A stretch of DNA of 64,000 nt. Source: Escherichia coli. GTDB taxonomy: Bacteria; Pseudomonadota; Gammaproteobacteria; Enterobacterales; Enterobacteriaceae. This document shows positions 6,001-9,325 of this stretch, in pieces. How positions within the stretch are numbered: the first letter of the stretch is position 1; every line of letters begins with the position of its first letter. Where the stretch lies: the NCBI RefSeq assembly GCF_002854065.1, contig NZ_CP024147.1; one strand, 5' to 3'. The position numbers were made by a program.

Positions 6001-9000
6001 CGGGCATCTGCTCCAGACGGCACTGGACGGTATCACGGTCAGCGAATATGAGCGTGACAGTCTGCACCGTCAGGTGATACGCACGCAGGGGAAACTGGCG
6101 ACGTTCAGCGGCTACAACGCCGACAACCGGTTAAGCTGGCAGCGCAGCCTGCCAGGTGGCAGCCAGAATCCACAGCAGGCCGGTACTCCCCCGGCGCAGA
6201 ACGACAGCGTGACGGCGCGGGACTATATCTGGAACGCAGACGGTGAAGTCGGCGGCATCAATGACAAACTGCGCGGTTGCCTGGTGTTCAGCTATGACCG
6301 CAGCGGCTGGCTGACCAGCCGCACGGGGCAGATGTATGACCATGACCATTATTATTACGATAAAGCGGGCAACCTGCTGACGGATGAGTATCAGGGAGCG
6401 GTGCTGGACAACCGCCTGCCGGGCTACGGGCGTGACCGTTACCGCTATAACGAATGGGGCGAACTGACAGAGCGCAGGGACCAGCAGCTGGAGTGGAACG
6501 CGCAGGGCCAGTTAACGCGGGTCATCAGCAGCAACAGCGAGACGCGGTATCAGTACGATGCGCTGGGCAGGCGCATCATCAAGGCGACCAGCAATCTCCA
6601 TACCGACCGGGGAGAACGAAGCCGGACAACGTTTGTGTGGGAAGGGTTCCGGCTGTTGCAGGAGACAACGTGGCAGGGAAAGCGGACATACCTGTACGAC
6701 GCGGAACAGCCGTACACGCCGGTGGCGGCCATCACCGGGCGCGGAGAGAGTCAAAAAATCTGGTATTACCATACGGACCTGACGGGCACGGTACAGGAGG
6801 TGACCGCGCCGGACGGGACGCTGGTGTGGGCGGGCTACCAGGCGGGATTTGGTGAAAACCGGGGCGACATCAGCAACAGCGGGGCGTACTTTGAACAGCC
6901 GCTGCGGCTGCCGGGGCAGTATTATGATGAAGAGACGGGGCTGCACTATAATCTGTTCAGATATTATGCGCCGGAGTGCGGGAGGTTCATAAGTCAGGAT
7001 CCGATAGGGCTGGCGGGTGGAATAAACCTCTATGCTTATGCTCCTAACCCAATTAGCTGGATCGATCCCTTTGGACTGGATTTACACCATATAATACAGC
7101 AAGAAATTTGGAAGGAGTTCAAAACAGATCTTAAAAAAGTCACCGGATATGTACAAAATGTCACGAAAAAGGCAGCCGACATGACAAACCTAATCGATCT
7201 GGATAAACCTTTTCATGGTAATCACCCAGCTTATAGTCAATATGTAAGAGAAGCAATCGAAGACCTGAAGGCTAATAATAACTTAACGTTGAAAGGATTA
7301 AGAGATTTACAAGATGATCTTAAAAAGAAAATAGGTGAAGCTCAAAAGTCTGGCAAAAATCTAAATGATTATTTTAAATCGGGGTGCTGATTATGAGATA
7401 CAAAAAGGTAACTGTTTCTTATGAGCCTGCAATCACAGGAAATAGTAAAGGAGGGTATTCAGTAGAAATAAAAGATAGACTCTCTTTTAATAGTCCTACG
7501 GAGAGAAAATACTTTGAGTCTTTTTTTGAAAATAATGATGAAAACTATAATAGAGTTTTTATCAATAATTTTGAAACTATTGATACAGTTTATCTAAAAA
7601 ATTTAATTTTATTTCCAAAACAAAAAAGGATAAAGGAAATTGATATGCTAATATTTTCCCCGCACAAACTCGGACTTAGTTTTATGATATCGGAGAAATT
7701 ATATAATATTATAACTAAATTTAAACTTCCTCCGTTCAATAAGATACCAGCTCAAATCAATACATTCAATACGAAGTATTTTTTGATCGGTTTCCCAATG
7801 ATACCAAAAGAAAGAATTGATTTAGATAAATCTATATTTTTTTGATACAAAAAAAAGAAGTGAATTTAATTTCAAATCATATGATGAATTCATCAAAATG
7901 GATTACTCTATTATACCTAAAAAAATATACCCAGATGTATTTTATGATGTCGATGTTATCGGTTTTCAGGGCAAAGGGCTATTTTTTTCTGACAGACTGC
8001 TTGATGCAATACAAAATGCCGGGATTGTAGGGTTGCATATCGGTGACACGGAAATGGAAATGAATCCGTAGATTGATACAGGAACTTTCACTTTTAAAGG
8101 GATCTTTGGTGTCTGCGATTTTATCTTTCTGTTGGTTATTTAGCAATCCGGGAACGATATTAATCCGCTGAAGATCCTGATTTATCTACGGGGTAAATGC
8201 CCGAAATATAGAAGGTTTTATATTGGATCATATGAAAGGGGATCTTAACCTTGAAAATGCCATCAGGAAAGATGGTGGATTTTATCATAGTTATAATGAA
8301 AATAATCTTGCAGAGGGACGAAAATATTTAAGCACGGAAGAAATTAGCAAAATCCTCGAAAAGGGTAGTGTAACTGATGTTGATAGTAAAGGGCACTTTA
8401 AAGCAGGAGGATGTTGAATGAATAGTATAATAAATAAAAATATAAAAAAATAGATATGATTACTAAGGGTATTAAAAAATATCCTCTTGGAGAGGACAAG
8501 CAAGAGATCTCAAAATTAATTTGCGATTTTGAAAAAATGCCACGTAAAGAATGTAGTGTGTTTTATGGTGTTTTTTTTAATGATAGTGAACTAGTAGATA
8601 AATTAATTAAGATTGCAAGATTTTATGAGGGTGATGATAAAATAACCATAAACGTAATATCCTCTTTGGGAAATATGTTCGTGCGATACAAAATATATCC
8701 ATCAGAAGAATTATATAATCTTTTTTTTCAACTTGAAAAGTAAGAGGAAAGTTAATTATTATGTTTCTTTGTTCATTTTTAGATTTCCTCAATTTAGGAA
8801 TTATAAATTTAAATGGGACTATATTTTATCTATTCCAGATATTTCACCAAAAGATAAATCAAAAAGAAACTTTTACTCTATAGTCAATAATATCGTTTTG
8901 TCGGGAGAAACGATCCCTGTTGAGTATAAAAATAGAGTTATTAGCTTGCTGGAAATGTTTAGTAAGGGAAATATGGGAAGCGTGTATAATGATGAATATA

Positions 9001-9325
9001 TAGATTTAATTAATAGGCTAGTTAAGCAACACGGCTAAGTCGGAACGTAATAATCTCGGTGAATATTGGTTTTTATTCTCCCGGATCTCCGCCAGTACTA
9101 ACAGGCGAAAATCCGGGAGGACTGATATTACGGCTGGATAATATCGTCAATAAACACCACACCATCAGTAGTACGCAACCAGCGCGGCGCTTTCAGTTTT
9201 GCCGCAAAGAACCAGATCAGTTCACAAAGCAGCCCCGTCAGGGGTTGTTCCATTTTAGATCCCTGCGCCTGTTCCGTCAGGATCTGGAGTAATACCTCGC
9301 AATATTCACACAATTGTAGTGGTCA

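What the first reader, a model, noticed from the sequence alone, without database searches (positions are those of the whole stretch)
8181..9038. AT-rich stretch with possible orphan toxin-end and immunity-like ORFs
Between the first immunity gene and the IS3-family element lie several short AT-rich ORFs. One ends ...GHFKAGGC, loosely reminiscent of the ...YFKSGC end of the upstream toxin. Two others overlap at a T8 tract as if one gene were frameshifted. This resembles the orphan toxin/immunity arrays that accumulate downstream of rhs genes, but no core-homology lead-in is visible.
Basis: inference. Interest (0 to 1): 0.35.

Follow-up and report, generated by a model that had tools for sequence, protein, structure and literature searches.

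The report
Decayed orphan Rhs toxin-immunity remnant
This AT-rich stretch is the broken leftover of a bacterial "toxin plus antidote" cassette: the last 60% of a probable DNA-cutting Rhs toxin and its antidote gene, the latter knocked out by two one-base slips. It is an ordinary genomic fossil of a well-known kind.

Summary
Window 8191-9316 is 98.7% identical to E. coli PapRG-06-5 and AR_0077. There the same DNA is the 3' end of a full-length 1374-aa T6SS Rhs protein plus an intact 206-aa downstream gene.

- **Toxin remnant:** The window keeps only the last 74 codons (8193-8414) of a 123-aa toxin domain that is probably a GIY-YIG-type nuclease. The catalytic N-terminal half and all Rhs-core lead-in are missing.
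- **Immunity pseudogene:** The cognate gene (ancestral frame 8418-9038) carries two homopolymer frameshifts, A8 to A7 at 8444-8450 and T7 to T8 at 8721-8728.
- **Not sequencing errors:** The identical alleles recur in at least 8 independent assemblies. Sister lineages keep T7 and an intact 193-aa gene.
- **Junction:** The remnant is joined at one conserved point (8191-8214) to the 3' flank of the upstream AHH-nuclease cassette. Three other E. coli genomes retain only a 24-nt relic of it.
- **Cognate pairing:** Toxin and immunity homologues stay adjacent in Salmonella and on a distant metagenomic Rhs.

Verdict: a dead orphan rhs-CT/rhsI module of low interest.

By-product: the "...FKAGGC / ...FKSGC" resemblance reflects a position-specific C-terminal cysteine shared by about 40% of unrelated Rhs toxin families. 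I found no description of it.

The parts
8072..8190 (+). 3' flank of the upstream AHH toxin/immunity cassette. It always travels with that cassette and has no similarity to the GIY-YIG-type cassette.
   Evidence: Window 6819-8214 is 95% identical to GF3-3 (L002 4739-6134). Only 3 of 5426 complete E. coli genomes hold it.
8191..8214 (+). Junction segment. These are the first 24 nt of the toxin remnant (GGGTAAATGCCCGAAATATAGAAG). They are shared with the full-length toxin gene and also survive as a relic in GF3-3, XJ34 and XJ6-3.
   Evidence: One search gives the three-way comparison. One search shows the junction string is identical in the window and L004-L015, and is followed by Rhs-core sequence in L002.
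8193..8417 (+). Orphan toxin remnant: the last 74 codons (V50-C123 of the 123-aa domain after DPLGL) plus the stop. The parent domain is a GIY-YIG-like Rhs C-terminal toxin. The open frame begins at 8181 and the longest ORF is 8223-8417.
   Evidence: 98.7% identity to the 3' end of the full-length Rhs genes in L001 and L003. Protein alignment. GIY-YIG evidence.
8405..8410 (+). AGGAGG ribosome-binding sequence embedded in the toxin's last codons, 7 nt before the ancestral immunity start ATG at 8418-8420.
   Evidence: Read directly from the sequence. The same GGAGGNTGTTGAATG junction occurs in Salmonella.
8418..9038 (+). Cognate immunity pseudogene. The ancestral gene has 206 codons and a predicted ARM/HEAT-like helical solenoid fold. 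It is now read as three pieces: 8418-8453, 8456-8743 and 8733-9038.
   Evidence: The intact 206-aa gene lies directly after the toxin in L001 and L003. Homologues. Structure.
8444..8450 (+). Lesion 1: an A7 run that is A8 in the intact gene. The -1 frameshift closes the frame that starts at 8418 with TAG at 8451-8453. It is shared by every orphan copy examined.
   Evidence: The run is A8 in L001 and L003, A7 in the window, L004-L011 and L013-L016, and A6 in L012.
8721..8728 (+). Lesion 2: a T8 run that is T7 in intact genes. The +1 frameshift splits the gene after about codon 104.
   Evidence: The run is T7 in L001, L003 and L012-L016, and T8 in the window and L004-L011. The exact 95-aa product is indexed in 64 blocks of the collection.
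9039..9314 (-). Conserved DNA downstream of the cassette. It holds the C-terminal part (9128-9313) of a minus-strand 154-aa hypothetical gene that is cut by the IS element.
   Evidence: Colinear with L001 8849-9126. The annotated intact gene is L001 8938-9402.
9315..10572 (-). IS3-family insertion sequence, 1258 bp, with ends TGTAGTGG...CCACTACA and a 4-bp target duplication CAAT (9311-9314 and 10573-10576).
   Evidence: It is absent from L001, L003 and L012-L016 at this site.
4502..7390 (+). Context: a chimeric ClpV(N-terminus)::Rhs-core ORF ending in an AHH nuclease toxin domain. It occupies the 'main' rhs position upstream of the remnant.
   Evidence: Pfam AHH E 1.6e-9.
7393..8071 (+). Context: the immunity gene of the AHH cassette, also a pseudogene. 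It has T7 at 7837-7843 where intact 225-aa alleles have T6.

Best explanation
The region is a dead orphan rhs-CT/rhsI module in the degraded T6SS-1/rhs array next to yafV-ivy-fadE of an E. coli strain.

**Origin.** The cassette once formed the 3' end of a full-length, T6SS-delivered Rhs effector. That effector's C-terminal domain of about 123 aa is probably a GIY-YIG-type nuclease. A translationally coupled gene for an ARM/HEAT-like immunity protein that neutralises it follows directly.

**Truncation.** A single recombination or deletion event joined the 3' flank of an AHH-nuclease cassette to the interior of this toxin domain. Only codons 50-123 were left. The Rhs-core homology and the catalytic Tyr/Tyr/Arg/His half were lost.

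**Consequences for the toxin remnant.** Without core homology, the remnant cannot be re-fused to the main rhs gene by homologous recombination. Without the catalytic half, it cannot act as a nuclease.

**Decay of the immunity gene.** It first lost its SD-coupled start frame (A8 to A7). In this lineage it was then split in the middle (T7 to T8). It most likely makes no functional protein here.

**Other lesions.** The same lineage has lost the T6SS through a ClpV::Rhs fusion and has a frameshift in the neighbouring AHH immunity gene. It also carries IS2 and IS3-family insertions.

**Shown:** the homologies, junction, lesions, their presence across assemblies, and toxin-immunity adjacency across genera.

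**Inferred:** nuclease activity, the immunity function, loss of function, and the order and mechanism of the truncating event.
For: - **Parent cassette on full-length Rhs.** Window 8191-9316 is 98.7% identical to L001 8001-9126. There it is the end of a 1374-aa Rhs gene preceded by vgrG and a DcrB-related gene, plus an intact 206-aa ORF. AR_0077 has the same arrangement at the same yafV-ivy-fadE locus.
- **Intermediate states exist.** A complete orphan with core lead-in (216 aa) plus a 193-aa immunity gene is in L016. The identical 64-aa remnant with an intact T7 immunity gene is in L012-L015 and L026-L032. A 24-nt relic alone is in GF3-3, XJ34 and XJ6-3.
- **Lesions are real.** A7, T8 and the junction are identical in 8 independent assemblies.
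- **GIY-YIG fold.**
  - All six family members hit Pfam GIY-YIG at E 2e-4 to 8e-3, at profile positions 2-35 immediately after DPxGL.
  - The AF2 model has pLDDT 83.5.
- **Cognate pairing.**
  - In Salmonella the toxin homologue (83% identity) is followed directly by the immunity homologue (54% identity), with the same TGA-ATG junction.
  - On a metagenome contig, a diverged 1391-aa Rhs carries a toxin domain 40% identical (E 1e-25). It is followed 1 nt later by immunity homologue P0179.
- **Concept.** The idea of orphan rhs modules as displaced fragments of full-length genes comes from PMC3967940.
Against: - No experiment shows that the parent domain is a nuclease or that the downstream protein neutralises it.
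- The Pfam GIY-YIG scores stay just under the gathering cut-off (16.8-22.1 against 22.6 bits). Foldseek against the PDB gave no significant hit.
- The A7 allele is carried by many orphan copies that keep an open 193-aa frame from the internal ATG at 8456. That lesion alone may therefore not inactivate the gene.
- Both lesions sit in slippery homopolymers, so occasional frame restoration cannot be excluded.
- No precursor with the AHH cassette followed by a complete GIY-YIG-type orphan was found. The truncating event is therefore inferred, not observed.
Confidence: 0.9

Rival explanations
1. The immunity gene is not dead but phase-variable. Slippage at the A and T homopolymers during replication, transcription or translation would switch production of a full-length immunity protein on and off. 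Alternatively, the two half-proteins might assemble into a working solenoid.
For: Run lengths vary between strains: A6/A7/A8 and T7/T8. The T8 form occurs on two allelic backgrounds, EGDD (P0013) and EDDD (P0016), so slippage at this tract happens. Orphan immunity genes can protect without their toxin (established for orphan modules, PMC3967940).
Against: Within the window's lineage, A7 and T8 are fixed in all 8 assemblies examined. The neighbouring AHH immunity gene is also frameshifted, and the T6SS is deleted, which fits general decay. Tracts of 7-8 nt are short for efficient phase variation. The second ORF has only a TTG start and no evident ribosome-binding site. The promoter-like count was not above shuffled controls.
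Confidence: 0.06
2. The frameshifts are homopolymer sequencing or assembly errors, and the immunity gene is actually intact in this organism.
For: All three frameshifts in the two immunity genes lie in A/T homopolymers, which is the typical error site of several sequencing platforms.
Against: The same A7 and T8 alleles occur in 8 independently assembled records from NCBI and ENA. The AHH-immunity T7 allele was scored in 7 of these; the search pattern did not match in L004. The exact 95-aa product is indexed in 64 blocks of the collection. Related lineages sequenced by similar methods show T7. Long housekeeping ORFs in the same window, such as fadE, are uninterrupted.
Confidence: 0.02
3. This is a rival account of origin only. 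The remnant was not made by a later internal deletion of a complete orphan. It arose in one step when the AHH cassette arrived. Homologous crossover in the Rhs core on the left, plus an illegitimate join inside the resident GIY-YIG-type toxin on the right, would have overwritten the resident toxin's 5' part.
For: DNA downstream of the remnant (8418-10974 minus the IS) is colinear with what follows the MAIN rhs in PapRG-06-5 and AR_0077. The AHH cassette is never seen without the remnant or its 24-nt relic. No genome with the AHH cassette plus a complete GIY-YIG-type orphan was found.
Against: The same downstream DNA also follows the complete orphan in L016, so colinearity does not discriminate. 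In most carriers the AHH module is itself an orphan with a short lead-in. The donor's native flank is unknown.
Confidence: 0.4
4. The stretch is merely AT-rich, horizontally acquired spacer DNA, and its ORFs are chance open frames.
For: Low GC produces many short ORFs on both strands. Examples are the minus-strand ORFs 8291-8503 and 8607-8792.
Against: The plus-strand frames have protein-level homologues down to 40-54% identity with conserved gene order in other genera. That pattern is not expected of non-coding DNA.
Confidence: 0.01

Closest known systems
Orphan rhs-CT/rhsI modules of Enterobacteriaceae. The example is the Salmonella Typhimurium LT2 rhs orphan (Koskiniemi et al. 2014, PMC3967940). 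The concept was first laid out by Poole et al. 2011, which I cite from my own knowledge.
   Same: [quoted passage not shown] The same toxin sequence sits on a full-length Rhs in other strains. It is followed by its own immunity gene and lacks its own initiation and export signals.
   Different: Typical orphans keep some core-coding sequence, which lets them recombine back onto the main rhs (522 bp in LT2). This one starts inside the toxin domain, so that route is closed. Its immunity gene is also frameshifted, so it is a fossil rather than a reserve weapon.
PAAR-RhsA-GIY-YIG candidate effectors of the Salmonella SPI-6 T6SS (PMC10469887, PMC11669294)
   Same: These are Rhs effectors of the same size (1,374 aa is listed) with a C-terminal domain assigned to GIY-YIG nucleases. 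They are encoded in a vgrG-eagR-rhs module with a downstream immunity gene. Salmonella homologues of this toxin (83% identity) and immunity protein (54% identity) exist.
   Different: I could not verify that the published Salmonella loci are this exact toxin family. A second, unrelated GIY-YIG-like Rhs toxin domain (P0069, from serovar Livingstone) also exists. Those papers report predictions only, with no activity data. The window holds only a truncated copy.
Orphan cdiA-CT/cdiI arrays of contact-dependent inhibition loci (own knowledge; reviewed in PMC9086364)
   Same: The same logic applies: displaced toxin-end plus immunity pairs accumulate downstream of the functional gene.
   Different: The delivery system and carrier protein differ (CdiA/CdiB against T6SS Rhs). 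There is no sequence relationship.
GIY-YIG nucleases: I-TevI, UvrC N-terminal domain, SLX1
   Different: The domain is short, fused to an Rhs cage and followed by a G/K-rich Cys tail. It falls below the Pfam threshold. The window's remnant lacks the motif-bearing half.

Membership tests
Orphan rhs-CT/rhsI module | [quoted passage not shown] | tested here: met
   It lies directly after the Rhs-AHH ORF (4502-7390) and its immunity gene (7393-8071). It is followed by a further orphan (10912-11811 plus 11823-12086). The 'main' gene here is itself a ClpV::Rhs chimera.
Orphan rhs-CT/rhsI module | The same toxin-coding sequence occurs at the end of a full-length rhs gene in other strains | tested here: met
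   Full-length 1374-aa Rhs proteins in PapRG-06-5 and AR_0077 end with this sequence.
Orphan rhs-CT/rhsI module | Retains some conserved rhs core-coding sequence 5' of the toxin domain (lead-in) | tested here: not met
   Homology to the toxin gene begins at 8191, which is codon 50 of the toxin domain. Positions 8072-8190 match only the AHH cassette flank. The feature is met by the related copy in L016. The window copy is therefore a truncated derivative of an orphan or main module, not a typical orphan.
Orphan rhs-CT/rhsI module | Toxin fragment is followed immediately by its cognate immunity gene | tested here: met
   TGA at 8415-8417 is followed by ATG at 8418. The same order is found in E. 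coli, Salmonella and a metagenomic Rhs. The gene is a pseudogene in the window.
GIY-YIG nuclease superfamily (parent toxin domain) | Significant match to the Pfam GIY-YIG model (PF01541) at or above the gathering score | tested here: inconclusive
   Six family members score 16.8-22.1 bits (E 2e-4 to 8e-3) against a cut-off of 22.6. All matches fall at profile positions 2-35 right after DPxGL.
GIY-YIG nuclease superfamily (parent toxin domain) | GIY-YIG fold | tested here: met
GIY-YIG nuclease superfamily (parent toxin domain) | Conserved catalytic Tyr, Tyr, Arg, His/Tyr, Glu and Asn | tested here: met
   Y4, Y15, R26, H30, E56 and N71 are conserved in every member that covers them, including the 40%-identical metagenomic homologue. 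Assigning them as catalytic rests on family knowledge, not on a test.
GIY-YIG nuclease superfamily (window remnant itself) | Possesses the GIY and YIG strands and the Arg/His helix | tested here: not met
   The remnant starts at V50. Residues 1-49, which hold Y4, Y15, R26 and H30, are absent.
GIY-YIG nuclease superfamily (parent toxin domain) | Nuclease activity | not testable with these tools
   This needs expression and DNA-cleavage assays.
Rhs immunity protein (RhsI), cognate to this toxin | Conserved adjacency with the toxin across diverged pairs | tested here: met
   E. coli has 206 aa directly after the toxin. Salmonella pairs a toxin of 83% identity with an immunity protein of 54% identity. 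Metagenome contig L023 pairs a toxin of 40% identity with P0179. One member (P0169) stands alone among housekeeping genes.
Rhs immunity protein (RhsI), cognate to this toxin | Membership of a described immunity family | tested here: not met
   There were no Pfam or NCBIfam matches. The family has 87 representatives at E <= 1e-3, and the library gives no names. The fold is a generic ARM/HEAT solenoid.
Rhs immunity protein (RhsI), cognate to this toxin | Binds and neutralises the toxin | not testable with these tools
   This needs co-expression rescue and binding assays.
IS3 family insertion sequence (element bounding the finding) | Two overlapping transposase ORFs with HTH and rve (DDE) domains, terminal inverted repeats TG...CA, and a 3-4 bp target duplication | tested here: met
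   ORFs 10189-10536 and 9323-10369 lie on the minus strand. The HTH_Tnp_1 and rve Pfam families are on record for the same genes in relatives. RefSeq annotates it as an IS3 family transposase. The ends are TGTAGTGG/CCACTACA and the target duplication is CAAT.

The most novel reading that the evidence does not exclude
Unrelated Rhs C-terminal toxins of this enterobacterial class end in a short G/K-rich tail whose last one to three residues include a cysteine. The most novel reading is that this terminal Cys is a selected functional signal that has not been described. It could serve toxin packaging in or release from the Rhs cage, or redox- or disulfide-dependent entry or activation in the target cell.

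**Counts.** Across 62 unrelated toxin families, Cys is at position -1 in 17, at -2 in 8 and at -3 in 2. It is absent at positions -4 to -11. Background Cys content in these domains is 0.7%.

**Protein-level selection.** Cys codons (TGT/TGC) and stop codons (TGA/TAA) vary, and the immunity gene's ribosome-binding site is sometimes downstream of the stop. Selection therefore appears to act on the protein rather than on shared DNA.
Probability: 0.35. Interest if true: 0.55.

Novelty: new member of a known kind. Interest (0 to 1): 0.2.

Why it matters
For the finding itself, little changes. It adds a well-documented example of how rhs arrays decay.

- The series of states found across E. coli runs from main gene to complete orphan, truncated orphan with intact immunity, truncated orphan with broken immunity, and finally a 24-nt relic. 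This gives an unusually complete picture of the life and death of one toxin/immunity cassette.
- It shows that orphans can lose the core homology that makes them recyclable.
- It links an uncharacterised ~200-aa helical-repeat family (87 representatives, no Pfam) to immunity against a rare, probably GIY-YIG-type Rhs toxin. That link would help annotation.
- The C-terminal cysteine tail, if functional, could bear on the open question of how Rhs toxins are held in the cage and reach the target cytoplasm.

Tried and rejected
- **PDB sequence search.** A profile of the toxin alignment hit only the Rhs core motif (NLYxYAPNPxxWIDPLGL) of solved Rhs proteins and said nothing about the toxin domain.
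- **Pfam and NCBIfam.** Scans of the immunity protein, the minus-strand 154-aa protein and the AHH-cassette immunity protein found nothing.
- **Promoter and terminator scan, 7000-9400.** There were 15 promoter-like sites against 11.0 +/- 3.3 in shuffles, so this was uninformative.
- **Rfam scan, 1-16000.** Nothing fell in the finding. The only hit was isrC inside the IS element.
- **Native context of the AHH cassette.** I looked for the cassette without the remnant, to define the truncating event. None was found among 5426 complete E. coli genomes or 23 contigs carrying its intact immunity gene.
- **Stratifying the Cys tail by Rhs core class.** The last 58 core residues are too conserved to separate classes.
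- **Literature on a terminal cysteine in Rhs toxins.** Searches returned nothing relevant.
- **Rejected idea.** The tail similarity is not evidence that the two toxins are homologous. They belong to different nuclease folds (AHH against GIY-YIG-like).
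Full report
**Observation.** The stretch 8181-9038 is AT-rich, at 25-36% GC. The Rhs core upstream is 55-63% GC.
- A frame that opens after the TGA at 8178-8180 runs to the TGA at 8415-8417. It ends ...DSKGHFKAGGC.
- ORFs 8456-8743 (95 aa) and 8733-9038 (101 aa) overlap just after a T8 tract at 8721-8728.
- The upstream toxin ORF (4502-7390) ends ...NDYFKSGC.
- The description is accurate.

**What the pieces are.**
- Megablast of 8081-9060 against 5426 complete E. coli genomes found five records.
- In PapRG-06-5 (L001) and AR_0077 (L003), window 8191-9316 matches at 98.7%. There it corresponds to the last 227 nt of a full-length 1374-aa Rhs gene.
- That gene lies after vgrG and a DcrB-related gene. 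It is followed immediately by an intact 206-aa ORF and then a minus-strand 154-aa hypothetical gene.
- In AR_0077 this is the same chromosomal site as in the window, next to yafV-ivy-fadE.
- The ...GHFKAGGC frame is therefore a genuine toxin end, and the two overlapping ORFs are halves of the gene that follows it.

**The lesions.** Base-by-base comparison shows two indels in the window's copy.
- The first is A7 at 8444-8450 where the intact gene has A8.
- The second is T8 at 8721-8728 where the intact gene has T7.

**The toxin.** After the Rhs DPLGL cleavage motif, the parent domain has 123 residues.
- It and its five relatives hit Pfam GIY-YIG at E 2e-4 to 8e-3. These relatives come from E. 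coli, Salmonella, Pectobacterium, Trabulsiella and metagenomes. The scores are 16.8-22.1 bits, just under the 22.6-bit cut-off. All matches fall at profile positions 2-35.
- Conserved Y4, Y15, R26, H30, E56 and N71 have the spacing I recall for I-TevI. That comparison is from my own knowledge.
- The window keeps only V50-C123. It therefore lacks both Tyr strands and the Arg/His helix, and I infer it cannot be an active nuclease.
- Candidate 'PAAR-RhsA-GIY-YIG' effectors of 1,374 aa are listed for Salmonella SPI-6 (PMC10469887, PMC11669294). Whether they are this exact family I could not verify. A second GIY-YIG-like Rhs toxin domain (P0069) also exists.

**The immunity gene.**
- The 206-aa protein has no Pfam or NCBIfam match.
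- Word-indexed search finds only close relatives in E. coli and Salmonella. A profile search of 1.84 billion representatives finds 87 members, mostly about 200 aa.
- The case for immunity is positional but strong.
  - In Salmonella the toxin homologue (83% identity) is followed by the immunity homologue (54% identity) with the same GGAGGNTGTTGA-ATG junction.
  - On a metagenome contig, a diverged 1391-aa Rhs carries a toxin domain 40% identical (E 1e-25). It is followed 1 nt later by family member P0179.
- The Salmonella protein starts at the ATG abutting the toxin stop and has no Met at the position of window 8456. The ancestral start is therefore 8418, served by AGGAGG at 8405-8410.
- The A7 allele closes that frame at TAG 8451-8453.

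**Are the frameshifts real?**
- The exact 95-aa product is indexed in 64 blocks of public assemblies.
- Eight fetched loci (L004-L011) are 99.2-100% identical to the window. They carry the same junction, A7 and T8.
- Sister lineages (L012-L015, L026, L028-L032) have the identical 64-aa remnant. They keep T7 and an open 193-aa frame.
- The T8 form also occurs on a second allelic background (P0016; L027, L033). The tract therefore slips recurrently, or the allele has recombined.
- A sequencing artefact is excluded.

**Junction and history.**
- Window 6819-8214 is 95% identical to GF3-3 (L002). This segment comprises the AHH toxin end, its immunity gene and 143 nt beyond it.
- The two homologies overlap in 24 nt, at 8191-8214.
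- In GF3-3, XJ34 and XJ6-3 those 24 nt are all that remains of the toxin. They run directly into the core of the next orphan (...ATAGAAG|AGACGGGGCTGCATTATAAT, encoding EETGLHYN). The join shows a GAAG microhomology.
- Those genomes therefore descend from the window-type arrangement by a further deletion.
- Every contig with the AHH cassette carries the remnant or its relic. The join therefore arose once.
- A complete orphan with 93 codons of core lead-in exists in L016.
- I could not decide how the truncation arose. One route is deletion of such an orphan. The other is a one-step replacement when the AHH cassette arrived, homologous on the left and illegitimate on the right.

**State of the locus.**
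- The 'main' gene here is a ClpV-N::Rhs-core::AHH chimera. The T6SS is therefore broken.
- The AHH immunity gene is frameshifted too (T7 at 7837-7843 against T6).
- An IS2 sits at about 3211-4539. It is absent in L004.
- A 1258-bp IS3-family element (9315-10572, target duplication CAAT) splits the downstream hypothetical gene.

**How it works.**
- It most likely does not work. The remnant has no start signal, no catalytic half and no core homology. It can neither act nor be recombined back onto a main rhs gene, which is the route shown for orphans in PMC3967940.
- The immunity gene, split mid-solenoid, most likely yields no functional protein.
- Weak selection is plausible. Only 2 of 5426 complete E. 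coli genomes carry this toxin end and its immunity gene; in both, the toxin sits on a full-length Rhs.

**The tail.**
- Among 12 distinct Rhs toxin tails in the fetched loci, eight end in Cys and one ends in Cys-Val.
- In 62 unrelated toxin families retrieved with the Rhs core end, Cys is at position -1 in 17, at -2 in 8 and at -3 in 2. It is absent at -4 to -11. Background Cys content is 0.7%.
- Codons and stop codons differ between families, so shared DNA does not explain it.
- I found no paper on it.
- Caveat: many of these database proteins are labelled partial, so some tails may be truncated.

**Verdict.** This is a decayed, truncated orphan rhs-CT/rhsI module. Interest is low, and it is a new member of a known kind.

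Noticed in passing
window 7370-7390 and 8394-8417; loci L001-L016; proteins P0035-P0153: Unrelated Rhs C-terminal toxins share a G/K-rich tail ending in cysteine. In 62 toxin families, Cys is at the last position in 17, at -2 in 8, at -3 in 2, and absent at -4 to -11. Background Cys content is 0.7%. Codons and stop codons vary, so this looks like selection on the protein. No literature was found.
   Followed up: partly
window 4502-7390: A single ORF fuses the N-terminal Clp_N/AAA part of the T6SS ATPase ClpV to an Rhs core and an AHH nuclease domain. A deletion has removed the rest of clpV, vgrG, the chaperone gene and the Rhs N-terminus, so the T6SS is defunct in this lineage. The cognate immunity gene is frameshifted, which raises the question of whether the chimera is expressed or toxic.
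   Followed up: partly
window 7393-8071 (T7 run at 7837-7843): The AHH-cassette immunity gene is also a pseudogene. It has +1 T relative to the intact 225-aa alleles in GF3-3 and L012-L015.
   Followed up: yes
L002 (GF3-3) 6111-6134; also XJ34 and XJ6-3: A 24-nt relic of the GIY-YIG-like toxin is fused, through a GAAG microhomology, to the core of the next rhs orphan. This is a further deletion step from the window-type arrangement.
   Followed up: yes
window 9315-10572; L005, L006, L008, L009: The IS3-family element (1258 bp, target duplication CAAT) splits a minus-strand 154-aa hypothetical gene. That gene has no family match and is conserved downstream of this cassette in all loci. In four related assemblies, a group II intron (RVT_1 + GIIM ORF) is inserted inside this IS at the position equivalent to window 9801/9802.
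   Followed up: partly
window 10382-10504 (-): An Rfam isrC Hfq-binding sRNA model matches at 150 bits, inside the IS3-family element near the start of its first transposase ORF.
   Followed up: no
window 12131-12364 (-); also L001, L002, L016, L017: A SymE-family type I toxin gene (Pfam SymE_toxin, E 2e-8) sits at the distal end of the rhs array. SymE-like genes recur between rhs orphans in the E. coli and Salmonella loci fetched.
   Followed up: no
window 10912-11811 and 11823-12086: A third cassette is present: an orphan Rhs fragment with core lead-in and a 148-aa toxin domain of unknown family (ends ...GRFPYD, no Cys tail), plus an 87-aa putative immunity gene. Both are intact and conserved in all related loci.
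   Followed up: no
L020 (Logan SRR5760347 contig) 681-1497: This is an independent example of the same kind of fossil in a distant lineage. A 67-aa truncated toxin end (48% identical to the C-terminal part of this toxin) overlaps the start of an immunity-family member (P0156).
   Followed up: partly
window 8444-8450 and equivalents in L001-L016: The A-run near the immunity start is polymorphic: A8 on main-rhs copies, A7 on orphan copies and A6 in L012. All orphan copies would have to rely on the internal ATG at 8456, 2 nt after the TAG that closes the upstream frame, possibly by termination-reinitiation.
   Followed up: partly
window 3211-4539: An IS2 copy is inserted immediately upstream of the ClpV::Rhs chimera. 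It is absent at this site in the otherwise 99.95% identical locus L004.
   Followed up: partly
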